A stretch of 64,000 nt of DNA from Planctomycetota bacterium (lineage in GTDB: Bacteria; Planctomycetota; UBA1135; UBA2386). The notes under the pieces were generated by a model. That model ran no database searches. It was not told the DNA's origin and was given only the letters and a program-made list of their open reading frames with translations. Every line of letters begins with the position of its first letter. Position 1 is the stretch's first letter. Below, piece after piece: positions 31,669-60,072 of the stretch. The stretch lies in contig OZ245838.1 in the NCBI GenBank assembly GCA_965228735.1, positions 4,256,001-4,320,000 of the forward strand, written 5' to 3'. The translations under genes and the position numbers were made by a program.

Positions 31669-33825
31669 TCAGTTCCCGAGCGTGATCTTCAACCCACGTG
31701 AGAACGTGACCCCGGCCAACGCCGTCGCATCGAGCGCGGCGGTCTGGAAGTACAACTCGAGGCCATGAAAGATCTGCGCCGCGGGCAATGGCAGCGGGGC
31801 AGTTGCGATGCCGGCGGGCGAGGTTCCGAGCAGGATCACGGCCTGCCCGGGCTGCACGAGCTGTGTGCAACCGGCGACCGGCAGGTTCGCCGGGCCGACC
31901 GCGCCGAGCAGGGCGACGAACGCTCCCGGTGAGGCCCCCACGACCTCGACCGCCGCGCTCGAGCTCAGGCTCGGCCAGCGATCGACGGTCAGGTCCGGCG
32001 AGTTCGCGGTGCACGCGACGCCGAAGTGTTCGACCGCGGGCTGCCCGTCACCCATCGAGTACACGTTGCGGTCGTCGACGAGGTACACGCCCCGAAGCCA
32101 TGCATTGCCGACCAGCGACATGGGCCGGACCGTCTTCTGCGGCGGGTCAGGCACGGTACGGGCCTGCCAGTTCTGACCGTCAAACTCCCAGATCCGTCCG
32201 GAGAACAACGAGAACGACTCCACCATCAGCGTGATGACGTTGCGCGAACCGTCGTACGCCATCGAACCACGCCCGGCCGTCGGGTAGTTCGCGGTCAGGA
32301 CCTGGCTCCAGTTCACGCCATCCCACTCCCAGGTATCGAGCAGCCAGTTCCCAGCCGCCCCGCGACCACCGTGCATCACCACCCGCTGGCGACCGAGGTC
32401 GTAGGCCATCGCGCAGTCGACCCGCGCCGGGGGCGAGGTCGCCGGGGCGCGCTGTACCCAGTTGCCGGCGCTGAACGACCAGGTGGTGTTCGACACCGGC
32501 GACGTCGTCGTGCCACCGAACATCACGAGCTCGCTGTTGGCCCAGTCGAACGTCATCCCCATGCCGTCCGACACCGGCCCCGGCGCGGTCGACAGCTGCG
32601 ACCACACCGCCCCGTCGAAGCGCCAGAGGTCGGTGTGCTGCGTGGTCTGCGACGAGCCGCCGTAGACGTAGGCGTACTGCGGCCCGGTCGCAGTCGCGGC
32701 GCCCCCCCGTCGTGGCGGCACCGGTCCAGGCACCGCGTTCCAGCCCTGACCGTCGAAGAACCAGGACTCCGGCGCCGACGGGCCGTAGCCGTCGATGAGC
32801 ACGATGCCACCACCTGGCCCCGCGGCAACGGCTGCGTTGTAGAGACTCTCGGGATGCGCCGGCCCGGACACGAGCTGCCACCGCGTGCCGTTCCAGGACC
32901 AGGTATCGCGAGAGTACTCCCCGGGGTTCGCACCGGCGCCGCCTGCGAGCAGACACTCCAACCGACCGTCATCGAACGTGAATGACGCGCCGGAACGGGC
33001 CGGCGGCGAGGCCGCAGGGTTGGTCGAAATCCAACTCAGACCGTCGTACTCCCACGTATCGACCAAGCCGGTGAAGCCGAACGAGTCACCGCTGAATATC
33101 ACGACGCGCCCACGCAACCGATCGAACGTCATGGCCGCGAACCGGCGTCCCGGCGGTCGCGTCGCGACGTTGATCGGGATCCAGCCCGATCCGTCCCACT
33201 CCCAGGTGTCGTCGAACAGCGTGAAGAACGCGCTGCCGCCGAACAGCACGACCCGCGCTCGCGCCGCGTCGTAGACCATCGTGGCGCCAACCCGGGCGGA
33301 GGGCGCTGTCGCCGTCGTGCGCTGCGACCACGTCATGCCATCGAACGCCCAGGTGTCGGACAGCAAACCCCACGGCGAGCTCGCGTAGCCGCCGAAGAGC
33401 ACGAGTTCGCCCCGCACTTCGTCGAACGTCGTGGCGAACATGATCCGATTCAACGGCCCCGTCGGAGCGGTCAGCGATCGCCACTCGACGCCGTCGAAGG
33501 CGGCGAGGTCGATCGGACCGACGACGTACTCCGACGGCGAGTGGATCATCAGGGTTCGCCCCGTTCGGCCGTCGAAGACCGCGGTGGTCGTGCTCGTCGG
33601 CGTGAGCGGCAGCCTCGGCAGCGCGCGCTGGCGCCACGATGCGCCGTCGAGCTCGAGGGTCTCGCCGTAGGCGCCGATCGCGACGTGCCGTTGCCGAACC
33701 GGATCGAAGACCGCGGCCTTGATCTCGGGCTGATCGACCGTGCGCACCTGCTGGGCAACCGCGGACGCGGCCATTGCCGGACAGAGCACCAGAAACAGGC
33801 GAACAACGGCTTCGGCCCTCGGCAT
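31669..33825 (-). CDS. Secreted Kelch-repeat beta-propeller protein with shared C-terminal domain
   Basis: Many repeats of P.AR....M.YD..R.RVVLFGG......DTWEWDG..W. Confidence 0.9.
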   Translation of the reverse strand: MPRAEAVVRLFLVLCPAMAASAVAQQVRTVDQPEIKAAVFDPVRQRHVAIGAYGETLELDGASWRQRALPRLPLTPTSTTTAVFDGRTGRTLMIHSPSEYVVGPIDLAAFDGVEWRSLTAPTGPLNRIMFATTFDEVRGELVLFGGYASSPWGLLSDTWAFDGMTWSQRTTATAPSARVGATMVYDAARARVVLFGGSAFFTLFDDTWEWDGSGWIPINVATRPPGRRFAAMTFDRLRGRVVIFSGDSFGFTGLVDTWEYDGLSWISTNPAASPPARSGASFTFDDGRLECLLAGGAGANPGEYSRDTWSWNGTRWQLVSGPAHPESLYNAAVAAGPGGGIVLIDGYGPSAPESWFFDGQGWNAVPGPVPPRRGGAATATGPQYAYVYGGSSQTTQHTDLWRFDGAVWSQLSTAPGPVSDGMGMTFDWANSELVMFGGTTTSPVSNTTWSFSAGNWVQRAPATSPPARVDCAMAYDLGRQRVVMHGGRGAAGNWLLDTWEWDGVNWSQVLTANYPTAGRGSMAYDGSRNVITLMVESFSLFSGRIWEFDGQNWQARTVPDPPQKTVRPMSLVGNAWLRGVYLVDDRNVYSMGDGQPAVEHFGVACTANSPDLTVDRWPSLSSSAAVEVVGASPGAFVALLGAVGPANLPVAGCTQLVQPGQAVILLGTSPAGIATAPLPLPAAQIFHGLELYFQTAALDATALAGVTFSRGLKITLGN

Positions 33826-33865
33826 TCCCCCATGCTACCGGCAACCCGAAGCGGCCGCCGGCGCC

Positions 33866-34017
33866 TCGGTCGCGCTGGAACAGGATCCGGTTCTTCTCGT
33901 CCGCCACGACCCGCTGTCGCGCTCGGCCTTGCTGATGAGGACGTCGCGCAGCATCACCCCGTGCTCCTGCGGTTGGTGCCCGCGGCGAAGCCCGCGATGC
34001 CGGCCCCGCCGCGCGCG
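33866..34017 (-). pseudogene. Decayed duplicate of the 3' end of the UshA-like gene
   Basis: Aligns to 35236-35389 with about 7 substitutions and two 1-nt deletions; stop TGA changed to CGA. Confidence 0.9.
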
Positions 34018-34087
34018 GATCGTCCATCGATCGAACTCGTCGCCGCGGCCGGCACACCGGACTTCGAATCGGCGATATCATCGCGCC

Positions 34088-35185
34088 ATGCGACCAATCG
34101 CGCTCCTGTTCCCGCTCGCAATGACTACGGCCACGATCGCCCAGACATTCATCGTCGACGCGAATAACGGCCTGGGCACGAGCTTCACGTCGCTGGCGGC
34201 GGCGGCCGCCGCGGTGCCCGATGGAGCCATCCTGCTCGTCCGGCCGGGAAACTACGTTGACTTCGTCGTCGACGGCAAGGGGTTGCGCATCCTCGCGGAC
34301 CCCGGCGCGCTGGTCGTGAGCCACCAGGGCTCGAGCATCCGCAACGTGCCGGCCGGCAAGAGCGTTGTCGTGCGCGGTCTCGAGTGGGCGCAGGCAACCC
34401 CTGGCTCGAGCGCGAAGCTACGCTGTTTCGCGTGCGCGGGTCAGATCCTCATCGAGGGTCTGAGCATGCCGGCAGTCGGATTCGTCGCCTTCATTCGCGC
34501 GACCGCCTGCGAGCAGGTCACGATCCGAGACGTCCGCAACCTCGGCGGCAACACCTATCTCGACCTCACGCAGAGTCACGCCGTCGTCGAGAACTGCGGC
34601 TTCGGCGGCTTCTCGGCGCGATCCGCGATCATCCAGAACGGCGGCAGCCTGCAGGTCACGGACAGCGACCTCGCCACCGCGCTGCCGTCCTCGCCACCGA
34701 ACGGTGGTGTCGAGATGCACGGCGGCGAGCTGCGGCTGCTGGGCGCGACCGCAGTGACTGCGTTCGGCGGCGTCGGCGTCGCGGGCACAGCTGGCACGGC
34801 GCGCGTCGATCCGACGGTGACGCTGCCGGCACCCGCATTCGCCCCTGCCATCCAGGGCTCGATCACGACGATGCCGGCGCTGTCGACGTCGTTCGACGGC
34901 ACGACCGCGATCGCGGAGCTCACCGGGGAGGCCGGCGCGTTCGCCGCGATCGCCATCGGGCTGCCCGGCCCTCGCACGGTGCTGCCCGGCATCGCGGATC
35001 CGCTGTGGCTCGATTCCGGCTCGCTCGCGTTCCTCGCTTTCGGCACGCTCGGGCCGACCCCGCTGACTCGCACCCTGCCGTGGTCGGGCGCCATGGTGCC
35101 GGGCTCGCGCACCGTCTGGCAAGGCGCCAGCCTCGGAGCCTCCGGGCTGCAGCTCAGCAACCCGTCGGTCTTGATTCTGCCCTGA
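34088..35185 (+). CDS. Secreted beta-helix-like protein with shared C-terminal domain
   Basis: Signal ...ATIAQ, then TFIVDANNG.GTSFTSL.AA.AAVPDG.ILLVRPGNY, a typical beta-helix N-cap. Confidence 0.8.
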   Translation: MRPIALLFPLAMTTATIAQTFIVDANNGLGTSFTSLAAAAAAVPDGAILLVRPGNYVDFVVDGKGLRILADPGALVVSHQGSSIRNVPAGKSVVVRGLEWAQATPGSSAKLRCFACAGQILIEGLSMPAVGFVAFIRATACEQVTIRDVRNLGGNTYLDLTQSHAVVENCGFGGFSARSAIIQNGGSLQVTDSDLATALPSSPPNGGVEMHGGELRLLGATAVTAFGGVGVAGTAGTARVDPTVTLPAPAFAPAIQGSITTMPALSTSFDGTTAIAELTGEAGAFAAIAIGLPGPRTVLPGIADPLWLDSGSLAFLAFGTLGPTPLTRTLPWSGAMVPGSRTVWQGASLGASGLQLSNPSVLILP

Positions 35186-35235
35186 GCGCGGCTCGCCCCT
35201 GGATTCGCCGGATCACGGCGCGCGTGCGCGGGCAG

Positions 35236-36828
35236 TCAGTCGCGCTCGAACAGGATCCGGTTCTTCTCGTCGGCCACGACCCGCTTGTCGCGCTCGGCCT
35301 TGCTGATGAGGACGTCGCGCAGCATCACCCCGTGCTCCTTGCGGTTGGTGCCGGCCGCGAAGCCCTCGATGCCGTCCCCGCCGCGCGCGAGGAACGAGCT
35401 CGTCACGACGCGATACGTCTTCTTCTCGTCGAGCGGCCGCCCCGCGATCTCGACCTTCACGAGCTCACGATCACGACCCTTGGCCCGATACGTGTAGGTC
35501 GCGCCACCGATCTCGAGCAGCCGGCGGCGGCCCTGCAGCGAGCCTTCGATGAGGTCCCACAACTGCGCGCCCGTCAGGTCCATCGAGACCAGCTCGTTCT
35601 CGAACGGCAGCAGCTCGTAGATCATCCGCGGCGTCAGCGGACCGGCCTGCAATCGCGTGCGGATGCCGCCCTTGTTGGTGAACGCGACGTCACCGCCGGT
35701 CGCCTCGAGGAACGCATCGCAGATCAGGTTGCCGGCGGCCGTCGAGCGCGCGCCGCGGCTGTCGTTGAGCGGCGTGACGAGTTCGCCGATCACGCGATCC
35801 CACTTCGCGGTGATCGCCTTGGTCTCTGTCGCGATCCACTTCTCGGTCGCCGGGTCCGGCGGGTACTCGTCGAGTTCGAGCGCCACGAGCTCGCCCTTCT
35901 CGATGACGAGCTCCTTCGCCTCGGCGTCCACCCGCGCCTCGAGCCGGTAGACCTCGCTCGCCTTGCCGTGGGTCTGGACGATCCACGTGTCACCCTCGCG
36001 CAGCGGTTCGCGCAGGCCGGTGTGGGAGTGGCCGCCCAGGATCAGCGGAATCTCGGGGAACCGCTTCGCGAGTCTTCGATCCACGGACACCCCGGAGTGC
36101 GTCAGCAGGACGACGACGTCGCTCGCCTTCTTCGCCGCCGGCAGCACTCGCGCGATCGCCGCGGCCTCGTTCTCGAACTCGGCGTCGCCCCACGGCCCCG
36201 TCGACACCCCCTTGGTCTGTTCGGTGATGAGCCCGAGGATCGCGATCTTCAGGCCGTGCACGGTCACGACGTGGAACGGCGTGACGTAGTCCATGTAGGT
36301 CGCGGGCTCCTTGCCTGCCACGAGGATGTTGGCGCCGAGCACGGGGAAGTCCGCGGCCGCGACGAGCGCTTCGACGTTCTCGGGTCCGTAGTCGTACTCG
36401 TGGTTGCCGAGCACGGCAGCCGTGACACCGAGACGCTCGAAGAACTCGACCGACAGCCTGCCGCGCGTCTCGTTGCCCTCGATCGTGCCCTGATACCAGT
36501 CGCCGCCGTCGGTCGCGATCACGGGCGCACCGCGCTTCTTCGCCGCCGCGCGTTCGCGCTTGACGAACGTCGCCATCGACGCCGCGCCGCCGACGTGCGG
36601 CAGCTCGCGCTGATCCCCGCCGGCCCGTGCCTTCCAGAACGCGAGCTGGGGCCGGAACTGCCCGTGGAAGTCGTTCCAGTGCAGGAACACCACGGGACCG
36701 TCGCGGAGCTTCGACTGACAGGCGGCCGGCCGCCCGAGCAGCGCAACGAACGCGAGCACGAGGAACGCAGCGGTCCAGCTGCGGCGCGCGCAGCGGGCGG
36801 GTGAGATCGGGCGATCGGACGTCGGCAC
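35236..36828 (-). CDS. UshA-like bifunctional metallophosphatase/5'-nucleotidase (exported)
   Basis: HWNDFHG, DGGDWYQG, LGNHEYDYG, LLTHSG, GGHSH, NKGGIR, LPFEN, FLARGGDG. Start uncertain. Confidence 0.92.
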   Translation of the reverse strand: MPTSDRPISPARCARRSWTAAFLVLAFVALLGRPAACQSKLRDGPVVFLHWNDFHGQFRPQLAFWKARAGGDQRELPHVGGAASMATFVKRERAAAKKRGAPVIATDGGDWYQGTIEGNETRGRLSVEFFERLGVTAAVLGNHEYDYGPENVEALVAAADFPVLGANILVAGKEPATYMDYVTPFHVVTVHGLKIAILGLITEQTKGVSTGPWGDAEFENEAAAIARVLPAAKKASDVVVLLTHSGVSVDRRLAKRFPEIPLILGGHSHTGLREPLREGDTWIVQTHGKASEVYRLEARVDAEAKELVIEKGELVALELDEYPPDPATEKWIATETKAITAKWDRVIGELVTPLNDSRGARSTAAGNLICDAFLEATGGDVAFTNKGGIRTRLQAGPLTPRMIYELLPFENELVSMDLTGAQLWDLIEGSLQGRRRLLEIGGATYTYRAKGRDRELVKVEIAGRPLDEKKTYRVVTSSFLARGGDGIEGFAAGTNRKEHGVMLRDVLISKAERDKRVVADEKNRILFERD

Positions 36829-36951
36829 GGCGCCCTGGGTACCCGATCGGGACCACGGCCGCCAGTCGCCCACCCCGGCAGCGCCCGCGATTGGCGTTCA
36901 GCCCGACCCAGCCCCTTCCCCCGCCGCCCGGGCGGCCTATCCTGACGCCCG

Positions 36952-38085
36952 ATGGCGGTTCCTCTGATCGATCTCACCCGTGACAAGCAGCTGCTCGCCG
37001 GCGTCGAAGCCGCGGTCGTCGACGTCGTGCGCAGCGGGCAGTACGTGCTCGGCACCACGGTCGAACACTTCGAGCAGGAGCTCGCCGAATACCTCGGCTG
37101 TCGCCACGTCGTCGCGATGTCGTCCGGCACGGACGCGCTGCTGGCGCCGCTCATGGCGCTCGACATCGCGCCCGGCGACGAGGTCGTGCTGCCGACCTAT
37201 TCGTTCTTCGCGACCGCCGGGGTCGTGGCGCGGCTCGGCGCCAGGCCGGTGTTCATCGACATCGAGCCGACCCACTGGAATCTCGACCCGGAGCGCCTCG
37301 ACGAAGCGCTGCAGCAGTGCACGCGGCCGAAAGCCGTCATCGGCGTTCACCTGTTCGGCACCGCGTTCGACGTCGACGCCGTGCTCGACGTCTGCCGCCG
37401 GCACTCGGTGCCGCTCATCGAGGACGCGGCGCAGGCCATCGGCACGAAGCATCAGGGCAAGATGCTGGGCAGCCGCGGGCTGTGCGGCGCCTGGTCGACG
37501 TTCCCGACGAAGAACCTCGGCGGCATCGGCGACGGCGGGTTCTTCACGAGCGACGACGACGAGTTCGCCGCCAAGGTGCGTCTGCTGCGCAACCACGGCA
37601 TGGCCGAGCACTACGAACACCACGTCATCGGCGGCAACTTCCGCATGGACGCGATCCAGGCCGCTGCGCTGCGGGTGAAGCTGCGCGCGATCGAGGACAT
37701 CACGGAGACGCGGCGGCTGAACGCCGAGCGCTACCGGCGCCTCTTCGCCGAGGCCGACCTCGGCGACTGGGCCGAGCTGCCGACCGACACCGACCGGCAT
37801 GCCTACCACCAGTTCGTCGTGCGCATCCCGCCGGAGCACCGCGACGGCGCGATCCAGCACCTGCGGCAGCAGGGCATCGGGTGCGGGGTCTACTACCCGA
37901 TCCCGTTCCACCGGCAGCCGTGCTTCGCCTACCTCGGCGCGGATCCCGCCGACTTCCCGGTCGCGGAACAGGCGAGCAAGACCGCGCTCGCCCTGCCGAT
38001 CTTCCAGGGGCTGACGGAAGCCGAGCAGATCGACGTCGTCGGCGCGCTCAAGCGCTACCCGCGACCGGTCGGCGCGGGTCAGTAG
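36952..38085 (+). CDS. DegT/DnrJ/EryC1/StrS PLP-dependent sugar aminotransferase
   Basis: SSGTDAL, VHLFG, IEDAAQAIG, TFPTKNLGGIGDGG, GGNFRMDAIQAA. Confidence 0.95.
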   Translation: MAVPLIDLTRDKQLLAGVEAAVVDVVRSGQYVLGTTVEHFEQELAEYLGCRHVVAMSSGTDALLAPLMALDIAPGDEVVLPTYSFFATAGVVARLGARPVFIDIEPTHWNLDPERLDEALQQCTRPKAVIGVHLFGTAFDVDAVLDVCRRHSVPLIEDAAQAIGTKHQGKMLGSRGLCGAWSTFPTKNLGGIGDGGFFTSDDDEFAAKVRLLRNHGMAEHYEHHVIGGNFRMDAIQAAALRVKLRAIEDITETRRLNAERYRRLFAEADLGDWAELPTDTDRHAYHQFVVRIPPEHRDGAIQHLRQQGIGCGVYYPIPFHRQPCFAYLGADPADFPVAEQASKTALALPIFQGLTEAEQIDVVGALKRYPRPVGAGQ

Positions 38086-38127
38086 GCGAGCAGCCAGACC
38101 GCGCCGGTCTGCGGCCGCCCGGCGGGG

Positions 38128-39228
38128 CTACTGGGTCCCGAGCCGCACCGCGACACCGAACGCCTCGACGTCGGTCGCGATCGTCGCGTCGGCGTCGGCG
38201 CCGTTGCTGACCATCCACGTGCCGCGGCCCGCGGCCGTGAGCGAGCCGAGCGTGACCGTCTGGGCGTTGCTGAAGGCCGCACCCAGGGCGTTGGCGTTCG
38301 GGGCGAACACCGCGAGCTGCTGGTGCAGCACGATGCCCGAGAACGCCGGCACGGCGGCCGGCACGAACGGGAAGTCCGCGAGCTCGCCGCTCGCGTCCGC
38401 GACGGTGAACACGGTCGCGTCCTGGCTCACGAGCACGTCGCAGTTCGTGCCGTTGAGCGTCAGCGGCAGCGCACCGAGCAGGCTCTGCGTGTTGCTGAGA
38501 CCGAAGATGACGAGCGCGGGCGCGTTCGCACCGAGGTTCTGACCGCCGAGGAACTGCGCCGAGCCCGGCGCGACGATGCCGCCGCTCGAGATCGCCACGG
38601 GCGGCGTGGAGCCGTCGATGCTGCAGCCCTGACCGAACGGCGTGACCGTGCCATCGACGGGACCACCCGTCGTCGCGACGCCGTCGAGGATCGTGTGCGC
38701 GAAGCCGAACTGCGAGAAGTTGTTGCCTTCCATCTGCAGGTCGATGACGAGCCAGCCGCCGGCCGGGATCGTGACCGCGACCGGCACCGCAAAGGCGAAG
38801 GTCAGGCTGCCGTTGGGATCGCCCCAGCCGTGCGGCGCGGCGACACCCGGATCCGGGCGGTAGTTCACGCTCGAGTCGAACGCCGTCGTGAGCGGGCTCG
38901 TGAGGTTGTCGGCAAACCGCGCGCCGGGGATCCCGACCGTCGTCGTGCCGACGCGGATCTGCATTCGCTGGATGTTGAACGGGCCGGGCGCGCCGACCTG
39001 CGGCAGCGGACCGTCCCAGCGGAACGACAGCTCGTTGGCCGTGAACGACGACGACCCGACCTCGGTCGCATCGAAGAACAGCTGCACGCGCGCATCGGTC
39101 TGCGCGAACGGCGGCAGCGCGAAGTTGGGGAGTTCCTGCGCCGGGTTCGCGGTCGCGGGGAGTTCGAGGAAACCCTGCGCCAGCAGCGGCGAGCTGCTGA
39201 GCAGGACGGCGACAGTCAAGTTCTTCAT
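38128..39228 (-). CDS. Secreted hypothetical protein with shared C-terminal domain
   Basis: MKNLTVAVLLSSSPLLAQ signal; beta-rich; FGQGC...SGIVLHQQ...FSNA. Confidence 0.8.
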   Translation of the reverse strand: MKNLTVAVLLSSSPLLAQGFLELPATANPAQELPNFALPPFAQTDARVQLFFDATEVGSSSFTANELSFRWDGPLPQVGAPGPFNIQRMQIRVGTTTVGIPGARFADNLTSPLTTAFDSSVNYRPDPGVAAPHGWGDPNGSLTFAFAVPVAVTIPAGGWLVIDLQMEGNNFSQFGFAHTILDGVATTGGPVDGTVTPFGQGCSIDGSTPPVAISSGGIVAPGSAQFLGGQNLGANAPALVIFGLSNTQSLLGALPLTLNGTNCDVLVSQDATVFTVADASGELADFPFVPAAVPAFSGIVLHQQLAVFAPNANALGAAFSNAQTVTLGSLTAAGRGTWMVSNGADADATIATDVEAFGVAVRLGTQ

Positions 39229-39313
39229 GGCGTCGTTGGAATACGAAATCGTTCGGGGCACCTGTGCGATTGGAACGCTAGATCGACGTCGACGGCGCTG
39301 TGTCACCGCCCGG

Positions 39314-40060: not shown

Positions 40061-40156
40061 CGGCCCGGTCGCGGAGTCCTCTTGTGCCAGCATCGTGACA
40101 CCATCCCCCGCTCCGGCCTCGCGTGTGTCACGAGCCCGTCACTCCCACGCAGGCCA

Positions 40157-43100
40157 CTACTGCGCGAGAGTGCCGTGAAACGCCTGGGTCCAGTTGCCCG
40201 TGCCGACGTTGCTGAGCTGCACGGTGAGGACCTGGAGACCGAGCGGCAACCCGAGGAACGTCTGGTCGTTGGGGAAGTCGACGTGGAACGGCGTGCCGTT
40301 GAACGCCCACGTCACGCTGAAGAACGGAAACCCCGGCTGCTGGATGTTGGCGTTGCCATACGGCGGCAGGAACTGCCCGACACCGAGGAACGGGCCGCCG
40401 AAGAACAGGATGCCGGCCCCCGGCGGGTTGCCCTGGAACGGCTGCCCGTCGACCACGATCGCGACCGACGACCCGAGCCGCGGCACCCCGGCGATCGTGG
40501 CGTCGTAGACCGCATACTCGTAGGCCCCGATGTCCGGCAACGCGAACCCGAACAGATTGTGGTCGAGCACGCGGCTGCGGCCGTCGTGATCTTCATAGGT
40601 GAACGCATCGTTGGGTGCGCCCGCATTGCCGACGCAGGGCGAGAACAGCGACAGACTCAGGTCCCCGTTGTTCGGGTCCGTGAACAGCGGGTCGGCGACG
40701 AAGTTGTTCTGCGTGCCGGCGTGCGCGGGCGACCCGTTCGACGAGAAGATCCGCGCCGGCAGCCCGAGGCCATCCACGAAGCCCACGAAGTTGTCGTTCG
40801 GGTTCACCCCGTTGAACCAGGAGATCGAGGCCGATGCCGCGCCGCTGTGCGTGCCCTCGGAAACGACCCCGCGACCCTGGTTCGCCGCGACCGTCGCGTG
40901 GATCAGGCTCACCGCCGTCGCCGAGAGCACGATCCCGTCCCCGCTGTTGCCGAAGGCCACGAGGTTGCGGCAGCCGCCGCCGTTCTGCGCGATGTTGATG
41001 CCATCCGATGCGGACAGCTCGACGCGCACGGCGTCGATCGACACGTTGGCCGTATCGAGCGTGACCGTCGCGGCACCGATGCCGCCAAAACGCGCGAGCA
41101 CGTGGTTCATCTGCGCCGGCGCGGTCGAGAAGCCGTACTCGACCCGACCCCAGCTGCCGGGGCCCGGCGCCGACGCGTTGCCATCACCGTTCGTATCGCC
41201 GCCATGGTCGTCATCGAGGAACGACGTGAGCACGATCGGCGCGTAGCCGCGACCGTCGAAGAACAGGCTCGTGCCCGGCCCACCCGCGGTGAACCCGGAA
41301 CTCGACGCGCTCGCGGCGGTGAACTTCACGATCAGACCCGCACCGAGCTGCAGGCTCGTGTTGGAGTTCATGACCGTGCGCACGTCGGCGACGATCACCC
41401 CGTCGCCGTTCAACGTGTTCCACACGTCCACGCGAGTGCTCGTTCCCGATGCGCCGGTGGCGCCGTTGACGAGCCGGGTGTAATCACCGAGCACGTTGCC
41501 GGTCGCCGTGCAATCGGAGAAGCGCGTCATCTGCGTCCACGCGAAGCCGTCGACCGCGCGACCGAGGTTGCCGTCGAACCGGCACCGTCGAACGATCGGC
41601 CGACTGCTCGTCAGGCGCAGACCCAGGGTCGCCGAGCGCTCGATGGCCGTGTCCACGAGCAGGATGTCCGCGCCGTTGAGGAGTTCGACCGCGCCTGCGA
41701 GGTTGTTGCCGCCGAACCGGACGCTCGTGAAACGCAGCTCGCTGGCGTCCGCGGTGCCGCCGAACGACAGTCCGGGCCAGTCACCGGGCGTGCCGACCGT
41801 CGGTCCGTCGCGACCCGTATCGCCGCCGATCGCATCGTCGGCGAGCGAGGTGAACACGACCGGCGCGTTGGCCGTGCCGTTGCAGACCAGCGCGCCGGTG
41901 ACGCTCACGCGCCTCGTTGCCGTCGCCCACTTGAAGATCACGCCAGGGCCGACCGTGAACGTTCGGCCGACGTTGATCTGCAGCACCGGATCCATCACGA
42001 GCGTGTCCTCGATCAGGTTGTTCGTCGTGACCGTCAGGTTCGCGCTGACGATGCCGTTCGTGACGCGGATCGCGTCGCCGAGCAGGTTGCCGGTCCCCGT
42101 GTTGGCGACGAAGTTCGGCAGGCCCAGCATCGACACGCGATCGATCGAGCGGCCGAGATTGTCGTCGAACCGACAGTTCTGGACGGTCGGCATGGTGCCT
42201 TGCACATCCAGTCCATCGCTCGCCGACCGCTCCACGTGGACCGCGGCCAAGGTGATGTTCGATTGCAGCAGCGAGATCGCCCCCGGCGTGCCGTTGCCGG
42301 CGAATCGAACCCGCGTCGAGCGCAGCACGCTGGCGTCGGAACTGGCACCGAACGTGAGCCCGTCCCAGTCGCCCGGCGCACCGACCGACGGACCGTCCTT
42401 GCCGGTGTCCCCTCCGATCGCGTCGTCCGCCAGGGACGTGAAGACCACGGGGGCCTGACTCGTGCCGTCGCACAACAGCGTGCCGTTGACGATGAACCGA
42501 TCGTCCGTCTCGTACTTCACGACCACCCCCGCGGCGATCGTCAACTGCCGGCCCGTCGGCACGGTCACGTTGTTGGCGATGACGATCGTCGAGTCGACGA
42601 GGTTCGTCGGCCCGATGAACTGGGTCCCGAGAATCGTGCCCGACGTGACCCGAATCACGTCAAGGGCGTTCCCGCTCGCGACATTGTTGCCGAGCATCGG
42701 CAGCCCCTGCAGAGTCGCGCGCTCGAACGCGCGCCCGGCGCAGTTCTGAACCCGGCAACCGATGATCGTCGGCATCGCCCCCAGGAGGTTGATGCCCGCG
42801 CTCGCCGAATCGGTCACGACAACGCCGTCGAGCAGCACGTTCGACTGCAGGGTCTGCACGGCTCCGTCGCCGTTGCTACCACTGAACCGCACCTCGAGCC
42901 CGCGCACCTGACTGGTGTTCGACGAGATGAACTGCAGCCGCCCCCAGTCGCCCGGCGCCGGCGCGAGCGGGTCGATCGCGAGCCCGACGGTGCCATCTCT
43001 GGTCGACGTGAAGAACACGGGCATCGTCGCCGAGCCGTTGACGTCGAGCGTACCGGCGATCTGGAAGCTCGTGCCGGCGGCGAACTTGACGACCACCCCG

Positions 43101-43288
43101 GGCTGTACCGTAAGCGTGCGCGTGCTCGACACGGACACGGACTGGTTCGCGACGTAGGTGTTGCCCGTCAGCAGCGGCCCGAACGTCGAGTCGTCGACGT
43201 TGGGGGGCAACGGAATCGGGCTCTGCGCTTGGACGGCGAGAGCGAACGCCACGGCGACGACCGTCGGAGGGAATGCATCGAATCTCAT
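40157..43288 (-). CDS. Large secreted right-handed beta-helix repeat protein with shared C-terminal domain
   Basis: Signal ...AVQAQ; four modules ending PVVFTS..DD..GGDT..DG....PGDW; DPLF...GDL.L...SPC and PDIGAYE near the C-terminus. Confidence 0.85.
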   Translation of the reverse strand: MRFDAFPPTVVAVAFALAVQAQSPIPLPPNVDDSTFGPLLTGNTYVANQSVSVSSTRTLTVQPGVVVKFAAGTSFQIAGTLDVNGSATMPVFFTSTRDGTVGLAIDPLAPAPGDWGRLQFISSNTSQVRGLEVRFSGSNGDGAVQTLQSNVLLDGVVVTDSASAGINLLGAMPTIIGCRVQNCAGRAFERATLQGLPMLGNNVASGNALDVIRVTSGTILGTQFIGPTNLVDSTIVIANNVTVPTGRQLTIAAGVVVKYETDDRFIVNGTLLCDGTSQAPVVFTSLADDAIGGDTGKDGPSVGAPGDWDGLTFGASSDASVLRSTRVRFAGNGTPGAISLLQSNITLAAVHVERSASDGLDVQGTMPTVQNCRFDDNLGRSIDRVSMLGLPNFVANTGTGNLLGDAIRVTNGIVSANLTVTTNNLIEDTLVMDPVLQINVGRTFTVGPGVIFKWATATRRVSVTGALVCNGTANAPVVFTSLADDAIGGDTGRDGPTVGTPGDWPGLSFGGTADASELRFTSVRFGGNNLAGAVELLNGADILLVDTAIERSATLGLRLTSSRPIVRRCRFDGNLGRAVDGFAWTQMTRFSDCTATGNVLGDYTRLVNGATGASGTSTRVDVWNTLNGDGVIVADVRTVMNSNTSLQLGAGLIVKFTAASASSSGFTAGGPGTSLFFDGRGYAPIVLTSFLDDDHGGDTNGDGNASAPGPGSWGRVEYGFSTAPAQMNHVLARFGGIGAATVTLDTANVSIDAVRVELSASDGINIAQNGGGCRNLVAFGNSGDGIVLSATAVSLIHATVAANQGRGVVSEGTHSGAASASISWFNGVNPNDNFVGFVDGLGLPARIFSSNGSPAHAGTQNNFVADPLFTDPNNGDLSLSLFSPCVGNAGAPNDAFTYEDHDGRSRVLDHNLFGFALPDIGAYEYAVYDATIAGVPRLGSSVAIVVDGQPFQGNPPGAGILFFGGPFLGVGQFLPPYGNANIQQPGFPFFSVTWAFNGTPFHVDFPNDQTFLGLPLGLQVLTVQLSNVGTGNWTQAFHGTLAQ

Positions 43289-43340
43289 GCCCGATCGGGG
43301 AGCAGGCGAAGCGGTCCGTGACGGACAATCTGCAGAACCG

Positions 43341-46022
43341 CTACCGCTGCAGCTCCCGCGACGGCCGCACCCCGAGGCCCGGATAGGTGAAATCGAGCAC
43401 GAAACGCGCCCGCCGAGCCGAGCGCTGCGCCGACGCCGGCTCGGAGAAGCACCCGGACCGCACGGCCATGTAGCGGCTGTTCGTGCGCGGCCGGTAACCA
43501 TCGCCCGCACGCACCGGCGTCTCGTAGCTGCCATGCCAGTCCCGGCACCACTCCATCACGTTCCCGGCGGTGTCGTGCAGCCCGAACCGATTGGCCTCGA
43601 ACGAACCGACGGGTGCGTGGTGCGTGAAGCCATCGTCCCAGTCCTCGAGCGTCCACGTCACCCGCGCGTTCTTCGAGATGCGCGGGTTCTGGTCCGCGAC
43701 GTTTGCCGCCCCGATCAGGCTGCGCTTGTCGTCACCGGTCCACCAGATCGTCGATGTTCCGGCCCGCGCCGCGTACTCCCACTGGGCCTCGGTCGGCAAC
43801 TCGCACTCGAGGCGCAGCAGCCATTGGCGCGCGTCAAAGTAGGAGATCATCTCGACGGGATGCGCGAGCGAGATCGTATGCGTGCGCAGCTTCGTGCCGG
43901 CGGTATGCCCGCTCGGGTTGTCGCCCGTGACGCGCAACCATTGACCCTGCGTCATCTCGAACTTCGACAGGAAGAACGCATCGAGTTCGATCTCCGCGGT
44001 CGGTTCCTCGATCCGCGTGAGACCAGGGTCGACGTTCGGCTGCCCGACGCCATGCTCGCCATCGGGCCGGATCGCGCCGATCGTGAACCGACCCGGCGGC
44101 ACGAGAACGAACACGAGACCGCTCGACTCGTCGATGTCGAGGCGGCCGTCGCCGCCGCGCCGCGGGACGCGGCCGGTCTGCGGGTGCCCGAACTCGAACA
44201 GGCCGCTCACCGGGTCGCGTCCGAGCGGCACGAGCCCGGTCTGCGGCGTGAGCTGCAACCCGTCGTAGCGCGGATCCGCGGCGACGGCGGCGATCGTGTC
44301 GCGCCAGTCGGCTCGACGACTCGCGACCGTCAGGTCGTCGACCTCGAGGGCGAAGCCGCGCCGCGCCTCGATGCGTGCCACGCGATCCGCCAGGAGCGGG
44401 ATGCCCTCGACCAGCTCCGTGAGCTCGAAGTACTCCCGAACGAGATCCGGGTCGTCGAACGGCGAAGCCTGCCGGAGGCGGTCGCGTTCGTAATTGCTGA
44501 TCAGCGCCTCGTCGAACAGGCTCATGTGGCGATCGAACGGTCCATCACCGCGACTCTGGATCTTGCTGCGCCGTTTCGCGATCGCGGCTCGGAGACTCAC
44601 GAGCTCCGCGGCCGTGGTCGGGTCGCGCTGCCGCGCCCGGCCGTCGAGGGTCGCGAGCCGCGCTTCATAGTCCGGCAGCGCCGCCTGCAGCGCGTGCGCC
44701 CGCTCGAGCCAGTGGTCCATTCCGCGCGGGCCGGTGACGCGCTCCTCGGTCGCCGGCCACAGGAACTGCTCCTCCCGCGGCAGGTCGCGCAGCGTCAGCA
44801 CCGCCATCGTCGTGGCCTTGGCCTCCTGCTCGGCCCGCAACCCGCCCAGCAGATCGAGCGAAACGAAGAGCGCCGTGGCCAGCACGGCCACCGTGAGCAC
44901 GAGGCTCGCGAGCGCGAGGGCGGCAGCCGGCTTGCGCCGCGCCCACTTCCAACTCCGTCGCACGAACCCCGGCGGCGCCGCCGCGATCGGTCGACGCTCG
45001 AGAACGGCCAGGAGGTCGTCGGCGAACGCTTCCGCGCTCGGGTAGCGGTCCTCGGGATTCTTCTCGATCGCCTTCTGCACGACCACCGCCAGGTCGCGCG
45101 AAACGGCCCGATTGAGCCGTCGTGCCGCCGGCGGATCCGTCGTGAGGATCTGCCGAAACACCTGCTCGCGAGTCTCACCGCGGAACGGCAGCTCGTTCGT
45201 CAAGCAGCAATGCAGCGTGACACCGAGCGAGAAGACGTCCGATCGCGGCCCGATGTCACTGCGGGCGTCGACCTGCTCCGGCGAAGCGAAGTTCGGCGAA
45301 CCCTGGAACGTGCCGCTGACCGTCAGCGTCTCGGCATCTGCATCGCGCGCGAGGCCGAAGTCGAGCAGAACGGCGCGATCAGCGGCCGCGATCCGGATGT
45401 TGGACGGTTTGACGTCGCGGTGGACGATCCCGGCCGCGTGCGCGGCGGCGAGACCGCGCGCGATGTCGTGGATCCAGCGGCACACCTGTTCCGCCGACAG
45501 CAGTCGGTCCTCGGCGCGCGCTTCGGCCACGACCTCGTCGAGCGGCTGACCGGCGAGGAGCTCCATCGCGAGGAACGCGACGCCGTCGTGATCACCGGCA
45601 TCGTAGACGGTGACGATGTTGGGATGCTGGAGCCGCGCGACCGCGAGCGCCTCGCGGCGAAAGCGCTCCTGCGCCGACGTGCCGGCGTGCAGTGCCTTGA
45701 TCGTCTTGAGCGCGACGAGACGCCTGGTCGGATCGTGCCTCGCCAGATAGACGACGCCCATGCTGCCCTCGCCGAGTCGGCGCAAGAGCCGATACTGCCC
45801 GATCCGCTCGATCATCGGCATCGCGGCCGACTCCCCGCCAACGAGGCCGAACCCAACGAGCGAGCCGAGCAGCTTGCGCAACTCGTCGGCGACATCGGGG
45901 TGGGCTGCGAGAATCTTCTCGACAGCCGGCACTCCGCTCTTTTCCCCGGCTTCGATACACTCGTACAGCAGCTGTTCGAGCGCCGCCTCCTCGTCCGGAA
46001 CTGTCGGGAACGGATCCGTCAT
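43341..46022 (-). CDS. Hanks-type Ser/Thr protein kinase with TM and C-terminal FGE-sulfatase (SUMF1) domain
   Basis: GEGSMGVVY, VALK, HRDVKPSN, DFGLAR, SPEQ; LPTEAQWEYAARAG, FGLHDTAGNVMEWC, GVRP. Confidence 0.93.
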   Translation of the reverse strand: MTDPFPTVPDEEAALEQLLYECIEAGEKSGVPAVEKILAAHPDVADELRKLLGSLVGFGLVGGESAAMPMIERIGQYRLLRRLGEGSMGVVYLARHDPTRRLVALKTIKALHAGTSAQERFRREALAVARLQHPNIVTVYDAGDHDGVAFLAMELLAGQPLDEVVAEARAEDRLLSAEQVCRWIHDIARGLAAAHAAGIVHRDVKPSNIRIAAADRAVLLDFGLARDADAETLTVSGTFQGSPNFASPEQVDARSDIGPRSDVFSLGVTLHCCLTNELPFRGETREQVFRQILTTDPPAARRLNRAVSRDLAVVVQKAIEKNPEDRYPSAEAFADDLLAVLERRPIAAAPPGFVRRSWKWARRKPAAALALASLVLTVAVLATALFVSLDLLGGLRAEQEAKATTMAVLTLRDLPREEQFLWPATEERVTGPRGMDHWLERAHALQAALPDYEARLATLDGRARQRDPTTAAELVSLRAAIAKRRSKIQSRGDGPFDRHMSLFDEALISNYERDRLRQASPFDDPDLVREYFELTELVEGIPLLADRVARIEARRGFALEVDDLTVASRRADWRDTIAAVAADPRYDGLQLTPQTGLVPLGRDPVSGLFEFGHPQTGRVPRRGGDGRLDIDESSGLVFVLVPPGRFTIGAIRPDGEHGVGQPNVDPGLTRIEEPTAEIELDAFFLSKFEMTQGQWLRVTGDNPSGHTAGTKLRTHTISLAHPVEMISYFDARQWLLRLECELPTEAQWEYAARAGTSTIWWTGDDKRSLIGAANVADQNPRISKNARVTWTLEDWDDGFTHHAPVGSFEANRFGLHDTAGNVMEWCRDWHGSYETPVRAGDGYRPRTNSRYMAVRSGCFSEPASAQRSARRARFVLDFTYPGLGVRPSRELQR

Positions 46023-46093
46023 GATCGTCGGGCGTGAGCGATACCCGCGAGTCGATAGCGTAGCTTCCTCCGGCCCGGTGCCGGGGACCACTG

Positions 46094-46672
46094 ATGACCG
46101 AATTCGAAGGCCTCCTGGAACGCGCCCGCGCGGGGAACCGTGACGCCGTCGAGCGCCTGCTCGAACGTCACCTCCACGGACTCCGGGCCTACGTTCGCCT
46201 GCACAGCGGCCGCGACCTGCGCGCGCTCGAATCGCACTCGGACCTCGTGCAGTCCGTCTGCCGCGAGGCTCTGAACAGCCTGCAGGACGCCAGAGCCGAC
46301 GACGAACCGACGTTCCGTCAGTGGCTCTACTCGATCGCGCGCCACAAGATCATCGGGAAGGTCGACTTCCATCGCGCCCAGAAGCGTGACGTGCGCCGAC
46401 TCATGCCCGACGGCGAAGCCGCGTTGCTCAGGGCCTACGGCTCGTTCTGCTCGCCGAGCCAGGAGGCCAGTCAGCGCGAGCAGGTCAGCGCCATCGAAGC
46501 CGCGTTCGATCAGCTGTCGGAGGATCATCGTCGGGTCATTCTCGAAGCATGCCTGCTGGGTCGACCGCACGCGGAGCTGGCAGCCGAAATGGGCCGCAGC
46601 GAGGAGGCGTTGCGGCAGCTGCTGTCCCGGGCGCGTGCCCGTCTCGCGATGCTGCTGCGGGGCTCGGCGTGA
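46094..46672 (+). CDS. ECF sigma factor, kinase-associated type
   Basis: LRAYVRL...ESHSDLVQSV, FRQWLYSIARHK, FHRAQKRDVRR, SPSQ, GRSEEALRQLLSRARARL. Confidence 0.9.
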   Translation: MTEFEGLLERARAGNRDAVERLLERHLHGLRAYVRLHSGRDLRALESHSDLVQSVCREALNSLQDARADDEPTFRQWLYSIARHKIIGKVDFHRAQKRDVRRLMPDGEAALLRAYGSFCSPSQEASQREQVSAIEAAFDQLSEDHRRVILEACLLGRPHAELAAEMGRSEEALRQLLSRARARLAMLLRGSA

Positions 46673-46688
46673 CGGCCGCGCGGTCGAG

Positions 46689-48116
46689 TTACTGATCGGG
46701 GCCGATCACGCCGATGCAGGCGTTGGTAACCGCGACGCCGTCGTTACCGCTGAAGATGATTCCCTGCGCGAACAGCGGCACACCGGCGAACGTCGTGTCG
46801 TTCGGCAACGTCCCCGTGAACACCGCGGAACCGTCGGGCGCGGTCGTCGCGAGCGGCAGCGTTGCGCCGACCTTCACGTAGATCACGTCGTCGAGGCCGA
46901 ACGGCGACAGCAACGTCGGTGGGTCGTGCAGTTCGAGCCCCACGATCATCGCCATCAGCGCGTTCGGGGTGGCGCCGTACACCTGCACCCCGTAGCCGAA
47001 CCCGACCAGCGGCGGCGCGAACATCGTCGTGAACCCGACGCTGCCGTCGCTGCCGGGCGTGCCGGCCCCGATGATCGTCACGGGCGCTGGGTCCTGGAGC
47101 CGAACGGTGTCGCTGCCGCTCGCCGTGAAAAGCGTGAGCTCGACCAGGTTCTGCCTGAAACTCGCGAGCTGCGCAGGCGACAACGGGATGGGTTGGAAGC
47201 CGAAGACCCCGCCGCCGAGGTTGACCCCGATCGCCATCAGAGCGTTCGTGCCGACCTCGCGCAGGTCGACTGCCGTCACGGTCTCGGGATAGTCCGCCGT
47301 CAGGACCGTGCCCGCGAGCCCGTCACCCGGCAGCAACTGGAACGTCGCGATCGCATTGTCGGTCGCGCCGTCGGTCGAGCTCGTGAGCGACTCTCGGAGC
47401 CGGCGCTCGAATCGCGAGTCCCCGGTGCCGAGCACGTTTCCGCCGCCGTCCTTCACGCGGGCGAACGTGCCGTTCTTGATCACGTCGATCTCGGATTTCG
47501 TGAGCAGCTGCAGACCGTTGAACGACGGTCCGGTGCCGAGCGGGATCGTCGTCGACCCGGGGTTCTGCGGGGTGCCTTCGACGAGCTCGAACTCGTTCGC
47601 CTGCGTCGTGCCCGTGCCGAGCTGCACGACCATCTGGCCCGTCTGCTCGAAGACGGTGAAGTAGCCGCCACCCGGCGACGGTCCGTTCACCGTGAAGACC
47701 CCCTCGAGCGGCCGCGCCCGCCGCAGCACATCCGTGAGCGTGGCGCCGTTGCCCGGGATGCTCACGGTTGCGAGCCCCTGGCCGATGATGTTCACCAGAG
47801 CGACGTCCGAGACCACGAGGGAGAAGACCGCCTTGGCGTTCGGCGGCGAGCCGATGACGCCATTCGACGTGAACGCGAAGGTGCCGACCGGGGACAGCAC
47901 GGTCGGGTTCGCGCTCCCGTGACTCACCGGAACGATCAGTTCGAGGAGGACGAGCGGCCCCTGGATGTAGCCGGTCACCTCGGCCGGCCCCTCGCCCGCG
48001 TTGACGCCGGGCCGCGCGCCGACCGGCACCGGCGTTCCGGCAGCCTGCGCGCCCGCAATGCCGGGGGTGAGAATGGTGAGGCCGAGGACGAGAGAACGGA
48101 GACCGTTGGAGTTCAT
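46689..48116 (-). CDS. Secreted hypothetical protein with shared C-terminal domain
   Basis: Signal ...GIAGAQ; C-terminus LPNDTTFAGVPLFAQG...VTNA. Confidence 0.8.
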   Translation of the reverse strand: MNSNGLRSLVLGLTILTPGIAGAQAAGTPVPVGARPGVNAGEGPAEVTGYIQGPLVLLELIVPVSHGSANPTVLSPVGTFAFTSNGVIGSPPNAKAVFSLVVSDVALVNIIGQGLATVSIPGNGATLTDVLRRARPLEGVFTVNGPSPGGGYFTVFEQTGQMVVQLGTGTTQANEFELVEGTPQNPGSTTIPLGTGPSFNGLQLLTKSEIDVIKNGTFARVKDGGGNVLGTGDSRFERRLRESLTSSTDGATDNAIATFQLLPGDGLAGTVLTADYPETVTAVDLREVGTNALMAIGVNLGGGVFGFQPIPLSPAQLASFRQNLVELTLFTASGSDTVRLQDPAPVTIIGAGTPGSDGSVGFTTMFAPPLVGFGYGVQVYGATPNALMAMIVGLELHDPPTLLSPFGLDDVIYVKVGATLPLATTAPDGSAVFTGTLPNDTTFAGVPLFAQGIIFSGNDGVAVTNACIGVIGPDQ

Positions 48117-59622: not shown

Positions 59623-60072
59623 ATGCCAACCATCAATTCGAGCATCCAATCCCTGAACAGCGTCGGCGGCACGTCGGTGCTGTCGACACGGCAGGCCGAC
59701 TACGGCGACAACCCGTTCCTGCGCCTGCTCACCGAGCAGCTGCGCAACCAGACGCCGCTGGATCCGGTCGACAACGAGAGCTTCATGAACCAGATGGCGA
59801 GCTACTCCAACATGGAGGAGCAGCGCCAGCTCAACGACAACATGCTCAAGCTGCTCGACTACCAGGGTCTCCTGGCGCGCGTGCAGGGGCTCGGCGAAGG
59901 GAGCGCGCTGCTCGGCAAGGAAGTGACGTTCACGCAGGACGGCGTCGAGACCTCGGACACCGTCGACTCGCTCTACGTCGCGGAGACCGGCGACATCCGA
60001 CTCCGGCTCGCCGGCGGCAGCGAGATCGACATGCGCTCCGTCATCGGCATCGCCCAACCGAGCAACGGCTGA
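59623..60072 (+). CDS. flgD: Flagellar hook capping protein
   Basis: FLRLLTEQLRNQTPLDPVDNESFMNQMASYSNME. Confidence 0.93.
   Translation: MPTINSSIQSLNSVGGTSVLSTRQADYGDNPFLRLLTEQLRNQTPLDPVDNESFMNQMASYSNMEEQRQLNDNMLKLLDYQGLLARVQGLGEGSALLGKEVTFTQDGVETSDTVDSLYVAETGDIRLRLAGGSEIDMRSVIGIAQPSNG

What the first reader, a model, noticed from the sequence alone, without database searches (positions are those of the whole stretch)
31669..48116. Five unrelated secreted proteins share a C-terminal domain: candidate undescribed export/surface-sorting system
Seen: proteins with different bodies end in a similar 110-130 aa beta-rich segment. Kelch 31669: LPLPAAQIFHGLELYFQ...GVTFSRGLKITLG. 34088: LPWSGAMVPGSRTVWQ...GLQLSNPSVLILP. 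38128: PAAVPAFSGIVLHQQ...GAAFSNAQTVTLG, plus a short tail. 40157: FPNDQTFLGLPLGLQ...GNWTQAFHGTL. 46689: LPNDTTFAGVPLFAQ...GVAVTNACIGVIG. Consensus is roughly P-x(5-7)-G-x2-[LT]-x2-Q ... G-x(2-3)-[ST]-[NRQ]-x4-[LI], often preceded by FG.GC/GAGT and P..G. All five have Sec-type signal peptides. Known: T9SS CTD and PEP-CTERM are C-terminal modules appended to diverse cargo. This motif matches neither (no TM, no KxxxK end). Inference: a lineage-specific secretion or surface-anchoring tag whose machinery is unidentified.
Basis: partly seen in the sequence, partly recalled or inferred. Interest (0 to 1): 0.8.

Follow-up and report, generated by a model that had tools for sequence, protein, structure and literature searches.

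The report
Planctomycete surface-docking domain, dockerin counterpart
Five predicted secreted proteins here, and about 375 in the genome of this planctomycete, each carry one copy of an uncatalogued 125-residue domain that likely docks them on the outer cell surface; the only one of 251 related genomes without it has dockerin domains in the same slot.

Summary
Confirmed. The five C-termini belong to one family that matches nothing in Pfam or NCBIfam. About 375 of 5,373 called genes in this genome carry it, never twice. It folds confidently as an Ig-like beta-sandwich with a co-varying cysteine pair.

It is not a strict C-terminal tag. Of 356 copies, 329 are terminal and 11 follow the signal peptide. 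Thirteen are followed by a tail; in 38128 the tail completes a jelly-roll, so the domain is inserted there. About 10 proteins are signal peptide plus domain only. A cleaved T9SS- or sortase-type signal is therefore unlikely.

Carrier bodies are K/E/R-poor like flagellins and surface lipoproteins, also against same-fold paralogues, so they likely lie outside the outer membrane. In the order, 250 of 251 genomes have the domain. The exception (G027) instead has a C-terminal dockerin expansion on homologous cargo, and keeps the same secretins.

Best reading: an uncleaved, non-covalent surface-docking module (0.5). An uncleaved export address is the main rival (0.3). No partner was found. The scan already noted this family in at least 22 genomes, including this one; the insertion, composition and dockerin-swap tests were run here.

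The parts
31669..33825 (-). Kelch-repeat beta-propeller protein, 718 aa (alternative start 33774), signal-peptide-like N-terminus ending A|Q
31675..32025 (-). shared domain, C-terminal copy with both cysteines; AlphaFold2 model (31672-32049) mean pLDDT 93.9
   Evidence: (E 1.4e-22)
34088..35185 (+). 365 aa protein of a 12-member body family in this genome, no Pfam or NCBIfam match
34808..35182 (+). shared domain, divergent copy without the cysteine pair (bounds approximate: last 125 residues)
   Evidence: (E 1.1e-3 before inclusion; hhalign E 2.9e-6)
38128..39228 (-). 366 aa conserved protein: jelly-roll/lectin-like body interrupted by the shared domain
38245..38637 (-). shared domain, inserted copy (residues 198-328)
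   Evidence: (E 7e-18)
38131..38244 (-). 38-residue segment after the domain, predicted to complete the jelly-roll; present in 76 of 78 listed homologues (query included; the other 2 are truncated)
   Evidence: (pLDDT 97-98)
40157..43288 (-). 1043 aa right-handed beta-helix protein; weak choice-of-anchor Q match (16.1 bits, cut-off 25) just before the domain
40166..40525 (-). shared domain, divergent C-terminal copy without the cysteine pair
   Evidence: (E 1.2e-5)
46689..48116 (-). 475 aa protein of no known family, signal-peptide-like N-terminus ending A|Q
46701..47072 (-). shared domain, C-terminal copy
   Evidence: (E 1.5e-18)

Best explanation
The domain is a single-copy, position-independent beta-sandwich module that likely stays on the mature protein and likely docks it non-covalently on the outer cell surface, the slot that dockerin fills in one related genome. 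Shown: the family, its copy number, its positions, its cargo composition and its distribution. Step 1, inferred from a heuristic signal-peptide scan: cargo crosses the inner membrane by Sec and is cut at A|Q. Step 2, inferred: the domain folds in the periplasm, usually with one disulfide (Cys5-Cys61 co-vary). Step 3, inferred and untested: the folded protein crosses the outer membrane, most plausibly through the GspD/E/F type II-like system that is kept with or without the domain. Step 4, inferred: the domain then binds a lineage-wide surface partner, protein or glycan, not identified. This would display about 7% of the proteome (propellers, beta-helices, peptidases, oxidases, sulfatase, lectin-like domains) as a surface coat.
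For: (1) One copy per chain: 0 of 356 proteins have two. (2) The domain occurs at the C-terminus (329), after the signal peptide (11), internally or with uncertain start (3), or before a 34-45 aa tail (13); about 10 proteins are signal peptide plus domain only. In 38128 single jelly-roll chains align over model residues 1-349 while Ig-like chains align only about 190-312, so cutting the domain off would split the body. (3) Cargo composition: the N+S+T+G minus K+E+R index exceeds 0.15 in 311 of 325 carrier bodies against 41 of 398 other signal-peptide proteins. 14 of the top 45 of those others proved to be divergent carriers. K+E+R is lower in the carrier in 46 of 53 same-fold pairs (21 distinct carriers, not independent). 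Flagellins score 0.23-0.26, and pilin-like proteins, lipoproteins and barrel-like proteins share the range. (4) Swap: 250 of 251 genomes of the order have the domain. The exception, G027, is the only one with a dockerin expansion (24 of 24 scored, next highest 6; 44 matches at E 0.01). All 29 dockerins examined are C-terminal, and 7 of the 9 bodies with a G000 homologue hit a carrier best, one at 50% identity over 391 aa. G027 keeps the same secretin types. (5) In 121 phylum genomes the 25 with 8 or more copies have at most 2 dockerins and 4 PEP-CTERMs, and the 10 dockerin-rich and 19 PEP-CTERM-rich genomes have none. (6) Cargo includes choice-of-anchor B above cut-off, and several homologues without the domain are lipoproteins of the same composition.
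Against: No partner was identified. What planctomycete dockerins do is itself only hypothesised (PMC6461901, passages), and no Pfam cohesin was found in G027, so the swap shows an equivalent slot, not a mechanism. The swap is one event in one draft genome (91% complete, 240 contigs), and its direction is unknown. Strict single copy and near-complete coverage of extracellular-looking non-lipoproteins fit an obligatory export address at least as well. Two or three carriers are lipoproteins that would need no second anchor. Location rests on composition only. About 70 of the 96 phylum genomes without an expansion of the domain have neither a dockerin nor a PEP-CTERM expansion, and kin are not independent.
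Confidence: 0.5

Rival explanations
1. Uncleaved export address: the folded domain is read in the periplasm by an outer-membrane secretion machine (a type II system adaptor or an undescribed translocon), wherever it sits in the chain.
For: Never two copies. Almost every extracellular-looking signal-peptidase-I protein has it. All-or-none distribution across the phylum. Cargo types resemble T9SS cargo (the resemblance is recalled knowledge). Ig-like sandwich like the T9SS CTD (PMC4804311 abstract).
Against: About 10 cargo-free copies. G027 changed to an unrelated helical module while keeping the same secretin types. No candidate machine co-varied with the domain: the twin-secretin cluster is phylum-wide and the large lipoprotein family is kept in G027.
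Confidence: 0.3
2. Self-assembling coat tile: the domains bind each other to form an S-layer-like lattice that displays the variable bodies, and stand-alone copies fill gaps.
For: Single copy, any position, stand-alone forms, very high gene number.
Against: Mean column identity is only 24% and only P89 and Q102 are near-invariant, which is little for a shared lattice interface. The swap for dockerin fits a many-to-one partner better than self-assembly.
Confidence: 0.08
3. Accessory substrate-binding module, like a carbohydrate-binding module, that holds enzymes on external particles rather than on the cell.
For: Generic beta-sandwich with weak matches to CBM-like and adhesin domains, Z 7-8. 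Any position is tolerated.
Against: Such modules are often tandem and cargo-specific (established knowledge). Here there are 0 tandem copies among 356 proteins, 151 unrelated body clusters and few conserved aromatics.
Confidence: 0.07
4. T9SS-like cleaved signal: the domain is removed by a sortase-type protease and the cargo is linked to a surface glycolipid.
For: 92% of copies are terminal. Ig-like fold. A weak C25-family match exists in G000.
Against: N-terminal, inserted and stand-alone copies. PorV not found. C25 not found in domain-rich G013 or G029.
Confidence: 0.04
5. Chance likeness of G/P/A-rich termini in a 70% GC genome.
For: Pairwise BLASTP among the five is weak.
Against: Convergent profiles with 0 decoys, a confident fold, cysteine co-variation with odds ratio 60, and 250 of 251 genomes.
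Confidence: 0.01

Closest known systems
Dockerin type I (PF00404) as expanded in other Planctomycetota; the 'planctosome' hypothesis of PMC6461901
   Same: Same slot on homologous cargo, one per chain at the C-terminus in the 29 examined, complementary distribution in order and phylum.
   Different: Unrelated sequence and fold: a beta-sandwich, against the helical calcium-binding dockerin (established knowledge). PF00404 has no match in G000. No cohesin-like partner is known.
T9SS C-terminal domain, type A (TIGR04183 / PF18962; accessions recalled)
   Same: Ig-like beta-sandwich on many Sec-exported proteins; overlapping cargo types (choice-of-anchor B, ELWxxDGT); Gln after the signal peptide as in the Bacteroidetes Q-rule (PMC5837995, passages).
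   Different: No profile match in 80 members. About 125 aa with a cysteine pair. Not confined to the C-terminus. PorV not found. The T9SS CTD is cleaved by PorU (PMC4804311 abstract); cleavage is implausible for inserted and N-terminal copies.
PEP-CTERM / GlyGly-CTERM / LPXTG sorting signals
   Same: Many-to-one terminal module on exported proteins; complementary expansion across the phylum.
   Different: No transmembrane helix or basic end (8 of 354 carriers have any later hydrophobic segment; domain net charge about -3). A folded domain rather than a short motif.
Surface lipoproteins (lipid anchor)
   Same: Several homologues without the domain are lipoproteins with the same extracellular-type composition.
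   Different: Covalent lipid anchor. Only 2-3 of 375 carriers have a credible lipobox.

Membership tests
T9SS C-terminal domain | matches the curated CTD profiles | tested here: not met
   0 of 80 aligned members match any CTD model in Pfam or NCBIfam at E 0.1; none of the five full proteins does
T9SS C-terminal domain | always at the extreme C-terminus | tested here: not met
   27 of 356 copies are N-terminal, internal or followed by a 34-45 aa tail; insertion modelled for 38128
T9SS C-terminal domain | Ig-like beta-sandwich fold like solved CTDs | tested here: inconclusive
   Beta-sandwich, pLDDT 93.9. Best matches are generic Ig-like domains, Z 8.6, rmsd 2.7, 89 aligned. PorU chain 6za2_B is rank 36, Z 7.2, rmsd 3.6, 98 aligned, among unrelated ties. 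No Foldseek match at E 0.001.
T9SS C-terminal domain | T9SS machinery (PorV, SprA, PorP, PorU) in the genome | tested here: inconclusive
   PorV not found, control rang in 1 genome. The SprA and PorP searches rang nowhere, controls included. One weak C25 match in G000, none in G013 or G029. GldK/L/M/N not searched.
T9SS C-terminal domain | cleaved off and replaced by a lipopolysaccharide link | not testable with these tools
   needs terminomics
PEP-CTERM and related sortase-type signals | short motif, transmembrane helix, basic tail | tested here: not met
Dockerin type I | duplicated calcium-binding repeat matching PF00404 | tested here: not met
   0 matches in G000; 0 of 80 members
Dockerin type I (works-like) | single terminal module on the same cargo | tested here: met
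   7 of 9 G027 dockerin bodies with a G000 homologue hit a carrier best
Dockerin type I (works-like) | binds a cognate scaffold module | tested here: inconclusive
   No cohesin above cut-off in G000 or G027; two partner candidates did not co-vary
Type II secretion substrate | Sec export plus a GspD/E/F system in the genome | tested here: inconclusive
   gspD-E-F-like operon at G000 2199409-2204764, scoring just under the equivalog cut-offs (262.8/351, 611.7/630, 418.5/424). Dependence of cargo on it is untested.

The most novel reading that the evidence does not exclude
This branch of Planctomycetota has an undescribed secretion-and-display system, a functional analogue of T9SS. One folded, uncleaved, position-independent domain addresses several hundred proteins across the outer membrane and holds them there. 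The address is exchangeable for dockerin, which would mean planctomycete dockerins are also envelope addresses rather than cellulosome parts.
Probability: 0.3. Interest if true: 0.9.

Novelty: new variant of a known kind. Interest (0 to 1): 0.75.

Why it matters
The domain defines most of the predicted surface proteome of a large, mostly uncultured branch of Planctomycetota (7% of genes here; 250 of 251 genomes of the order), yet it has no family model. How these bacteria place folded, disulfide- and haem-containing proteins outside the outer membrane is open. The domain gives a handle for a reporter fusion and a pull-down, and G027 gives a natural negative for profiling the partner. It also ties the unexplained dockerin expansions of other planctomycetes to the same question.

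Tried and rejected
Homotrimer prediction of the domain gave no answer (score 0.00); it counts neither for nor against self-binding.

Partner candidates that did not co-vary:
- Twin-secretin/ExbBD/TPR cluster: the secretin matched in 107 of 121 phylum genomes. Its TPR protein matched only 10 of 121, 9 of them carriers, but the single-sequence search is too weak to read.
- Large Gly-rich surface lipoprotein family: kept in G027, only weak in carrier G114 and not found in several other carriers.
- Secretin count does not separate G027 from carriers.
- A heuristic list of 35 barrel candidates, paralogue clusters and neighbourhoods of stand-alone copies showed no recurring partner gene.

Other dead ends:
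- Type I glutaminyl cyclase PF05096 was not found; type II was not searched.
- PDB sequence search: nothing below E 0.29. Cohesins and T9SS CTD-only entries were not among the top 50 fold matches, which does not exclude them.
- ESM Atlas: nearest clusters are unnamed Planctomycetota proteins.
- A MAFFT-based union profile was less sensitive than the iterative ones and was dropped.
- The choice-of-anchor B homologue search returned only within-lineage hits in its top 120 (116 with the domain terminal, 4 without a match, mostly truncated), so it could not show swaps in other phyla.
- FG-GAP proteins of four other domain-negative genomes showed no common terminal module.
- A class-level search at E 1e-25 was too strict to read presence.
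- No count against the 1.84-billion-protein library and no organism names from genome contigs were obtained, so the family's range outside the phylum rests on the Atlas result alone.
Full report
OBSERVATION. The five ORFs are real. Four are on the minus strand and 34088 on the plus strand; likelier starts are 39228 and 43288 for the ORFs ending at 38128 and 40157. All five begin with a short hydrophobic stretch ending A|Q; this was judged by eye and by a heuristic, as no signal-peptide predictor was available. Their last 125-135 residues are only weakly alike pairwise (best E 5e-5). Iterative profile searches started separately from each converge on the same 289-310 ORFs of the genome, with no hits among reversed decoys. 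34088 is the most divergent member (E 1.1e-3 in a C-terminus-only search before inclusion; profile-profile E 2.9e-6).

THE FAMILY IN THIS GENOME. I called 5,373 genes with a self-trained model. The converged profile finds 356 at E 0.01 (best decoy E 0.59), and 19 more divergent ones in the C-terminal search: about 375, or 7% of genes, spread over the chromosome. No protein has two copies. A hydrophobic N-terminal stretch is seen in 249 of 351 carriers against 1,567 of 4,400 other genes. Gln follows the predicted cut in 210 of 233 against 457 of 973. Conserved positions are mostly Gly and Pro plus a near-invariant Gln. Cys5 and Cys61 co-vary (166 both, 36 neither, 20 one; odds ratio 60), which implies a disulfide and so folding outside the cytoplasm (inference). 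Bodies fall into 151 clusters. Scans of 49 and 64 carriers (18 in both sets) show Kelch and other propellers, M14 and trypsin peptidases, a sulfatase, di-haem peroxidases, a multicopper oxidase, a laminin-G domain, ELWxxDGT repeats and choice-of-anchor B above cut-off; about half have no match.

WHAT IT IS NOT. None of 80 aligned domains matches a Pfam or NCBIfam model beyond single chance hits at E 0.015 or worse. Nothing matches PDB sequences, and the nearest Atlas clusters are unnamed Planctomycetota proteins. AlphaFold2 gives a confident beta-sandwich (pLDDT 93.9, pTM 0.87). Its best structural matches are generic Ig-like domains (Z 8.6, rmsd 2.7, 89 aligned), a level the tool warns can be a common arrangement. 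PorV was not found; the SprA and PorP searches were uninformative because no control rang. The genome has three PEP-CTERM matches and no dockerin.

POSITION. Of 356 copies, 329 end within 15 residues of the stop. Eleven follow the signal peptide directly, one is internal, two have uncertain starts, and 13 are followed by a 34-45 residue tail. About 10 of the terminal class are signal peptide plus domain only. For 38128 the full model has pLDDT 97-98 on the tail and pTM 0.91. Single jelly-roll chains align across residues 1-349 (for example 3gbw_A, 161 residues, 140 aligned, Z 7.0, rmsd 3.5), while Ig-like chains align only about 190-312. So the domain is predicted to be inserted in the body. 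The arrangement is kept in 76 of 78 listed homologues, the query included; the other two are truncated. Only this one tail-type protein was modelled. A signal that is cut off at the C-terminus cannot easily serve these forms.

WHERE THE CARGO LIES (inference from composition). The index (N+S+T+G minus K+E+R) exceeds 0.15 in 311 of 325 carrier bodies and in 41 of 398 other signal-peptide proteins with A|Q. Of the 45 highest of those others, 14 were later recognised as divergent carriers. By eye about 10 more look so, 5 look like outer-membrane barrels, and 3 end in a MAM-like segment (label recalled, untested). To separate fold from location I compared aligned regions of carriers with non-carrier paralogues. 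K+E+R is lower in the carrier in 46 of 53 pairs, covering sulfatase, serine hydrolase, copper oxidase, Vps10 propeller and MauG folds. These pairs come from only 21 carriers and are not independent. The 7 exceptions are four lipoprotein-like and three MAM-like-ended proteins. Flagellins (recognised by motif) score 0.23-0.26, and pilin-like proteins and lipoproteins fall in the same range. This supports, but does not show, an extracellular location.

DISTRIBUTION AND THE SWAP. Named homologues are Planctomycetota. The 70% GC and a MamK-like actin fit the 'Saltatorellus' clade (10.1101/817700 and 10.64898/2026.10.26.761892, passages); this placement is an inference. The 25 have at most 4 PEP-CTERMs and 2 dockerins. 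The 10 genomes with 10 or more dockerins and the 19 with 8 or more PEP-CTERMs have none of the domain. About 70 negatives have neither expansion, and kin are not independent.

Within the order, 250 of 251 genomes match. The exception, G027, has no match even at E 1 and is the only one with a dockerin expansion (24 of 24 scored, next highest 6; 44 at E 0.01). I examined 29 of those 44. All are within 30 residues of the stop, and their bodies have indices of 0.14-0.29. Of the 28 with enough body to search, 9 have a G000 homologue and 7 of these hit a carrier best (6 distinct carriers; up to 50% identity over 391 aa). G027 looks like a true relative. Its secretins are as close to G000's as those of other order members, it carries the lineage's lipoprotein family, and contigs C103 and C23 each join a dockerin-like protein to such a marker. 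It remains one draft genome, and the direction of the change is unknown.

MECHANISM. Best reading (0.5): Sec export and periplasmic folding, then passage of the folded protein through a general route, most plausibly the gspD-E-F-like system that G027 also keeps. The uncleaved domain then docks on a surface partner. Replacing a docking pair gene by gene while keeping the same secretins seems easier than replacing an obligatory export address, and cargo-free copies make sense for a binding module. The main rival (0.3) is an uncleaved export address, favoured by strict single copy and near-complete coverage of extracellular-looking proteins; the two readings are not exclusive. A self-assembling coat (0.08), a substrate-binding module (0.07) and a cleaved T9SS-like signal (0.04) are less likely. 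No partner was found: a twin-secretin/ExbBD cluster is phylum-wide, and a large lipoprotein family is kept in G027.

KNOWN AND NEW. It works like the terminal modules of the choice-of-anchor logic (that these bodies switch anchors between phyla is recalled from the TIGRFAM descriptions), and most directly like planctomycete dockerins. For those a surface peptidase complex has been hypothesised but not shown (PMC6461901, passages). It is a member of none of these families. Eight full-text searches listed no paper describing the domain. The Saltatorellota preprint has no occurrence of 'secretion', 'signal peptide' or 'S-layer' in its main text. Supplements were not read and subscription papers are not covered. 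Earlier notes of this scan describe the same family in at least 22 genomes and in this genome. One named dockerin as the comparator and prompted the test; a word search for the swap or the insertion found no note.

VERDICT. A real, very large, uncatalogued module, best read as a surface-docking counterpart of dockerin, with its partner unknown. Interest 0.75; new variant of a known kind.

Noticed in passing
whole genome G000: Gln follows the predicted signal-peptidase cut in 457 of 973 non-carrier and 210 of 233 carrier proteins. This looks like the Bacteroidetes Q-rule outside that phylum; the paper (PMC5837995) does not mention Planctomycetes. Type I glutaminyl cyclase was not found; type II was not searched.
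   Followed up: partly
L043:1981-19100 (G000 6767480-6784599): Two atypical secretins flank a 949 aa protein of no known family, a TPR-like protein and ExbB/ExbD/ExbD-like genes, next to a MamK-family actin (above cut-off). The secretin has matches in 107 of 121 phylum genomes, often as a nearby pair. Function unknown; possibly a proton-driven secretin machine.
   Followed up: partly
L047:874-4368 and paralogues (G000 2418873, 2695762, 5166000 region): Family of about 1,100-1,200 aa Gly-rich surface lipoproteins ending in a conserved P-F-x-aromatic motif, with no NCBIfam match; a marker of this clade, also present in G027.
   Followed up: partly
G000 7038004, 5970101, 2954019, 5689978, 891893: Secreted proteins with carrier-like bodies and composition that end in a MAM-like segment (label recalled) instead of the domain; possibly a second terminal module.
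   Followed up: no
window 28180-31641 (+): Glucosamine-6-phosphate synthase-like ORF (read by eye) of 1,153 aa, nearly twice the usual length, with N- and C-terminal extensions.
   Followed up: no
window 43341-46672: Ser/Thr kinase with a C-terminal formylglycine-generating-enzyme-like domain (43341-46022, minus) divergent from an ECF sigma factor (46094-46672, plus), lying between two carriers; read by eye.
   Followed up: no
G000 5826684-5828531 and 2745276-2747855: Two carriers with clear lipoprotein signal peptides, so the lipid anchor and the domain are not fully exclusive.
   Followed up: partly
G000 1245429-1248329 (L034:6873-9773): The domain lies inside a 966 aa non-lipoprotein that is 57% identical over 573 aa to a large lipoprotein lacking it: a possible lipid-anchor-for-domain exchange within one genome.
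   Followed up: partly
window 59623-64000 (+): Flagellar hook and rod genes (read by eye); the genome has at least five flagellin-like genes.
   Followed up: no
G217 (phylum sample): A single copy of the domain in a family that otherwise lacks it; possibly a transferred cargo gene.
   Followed up: no
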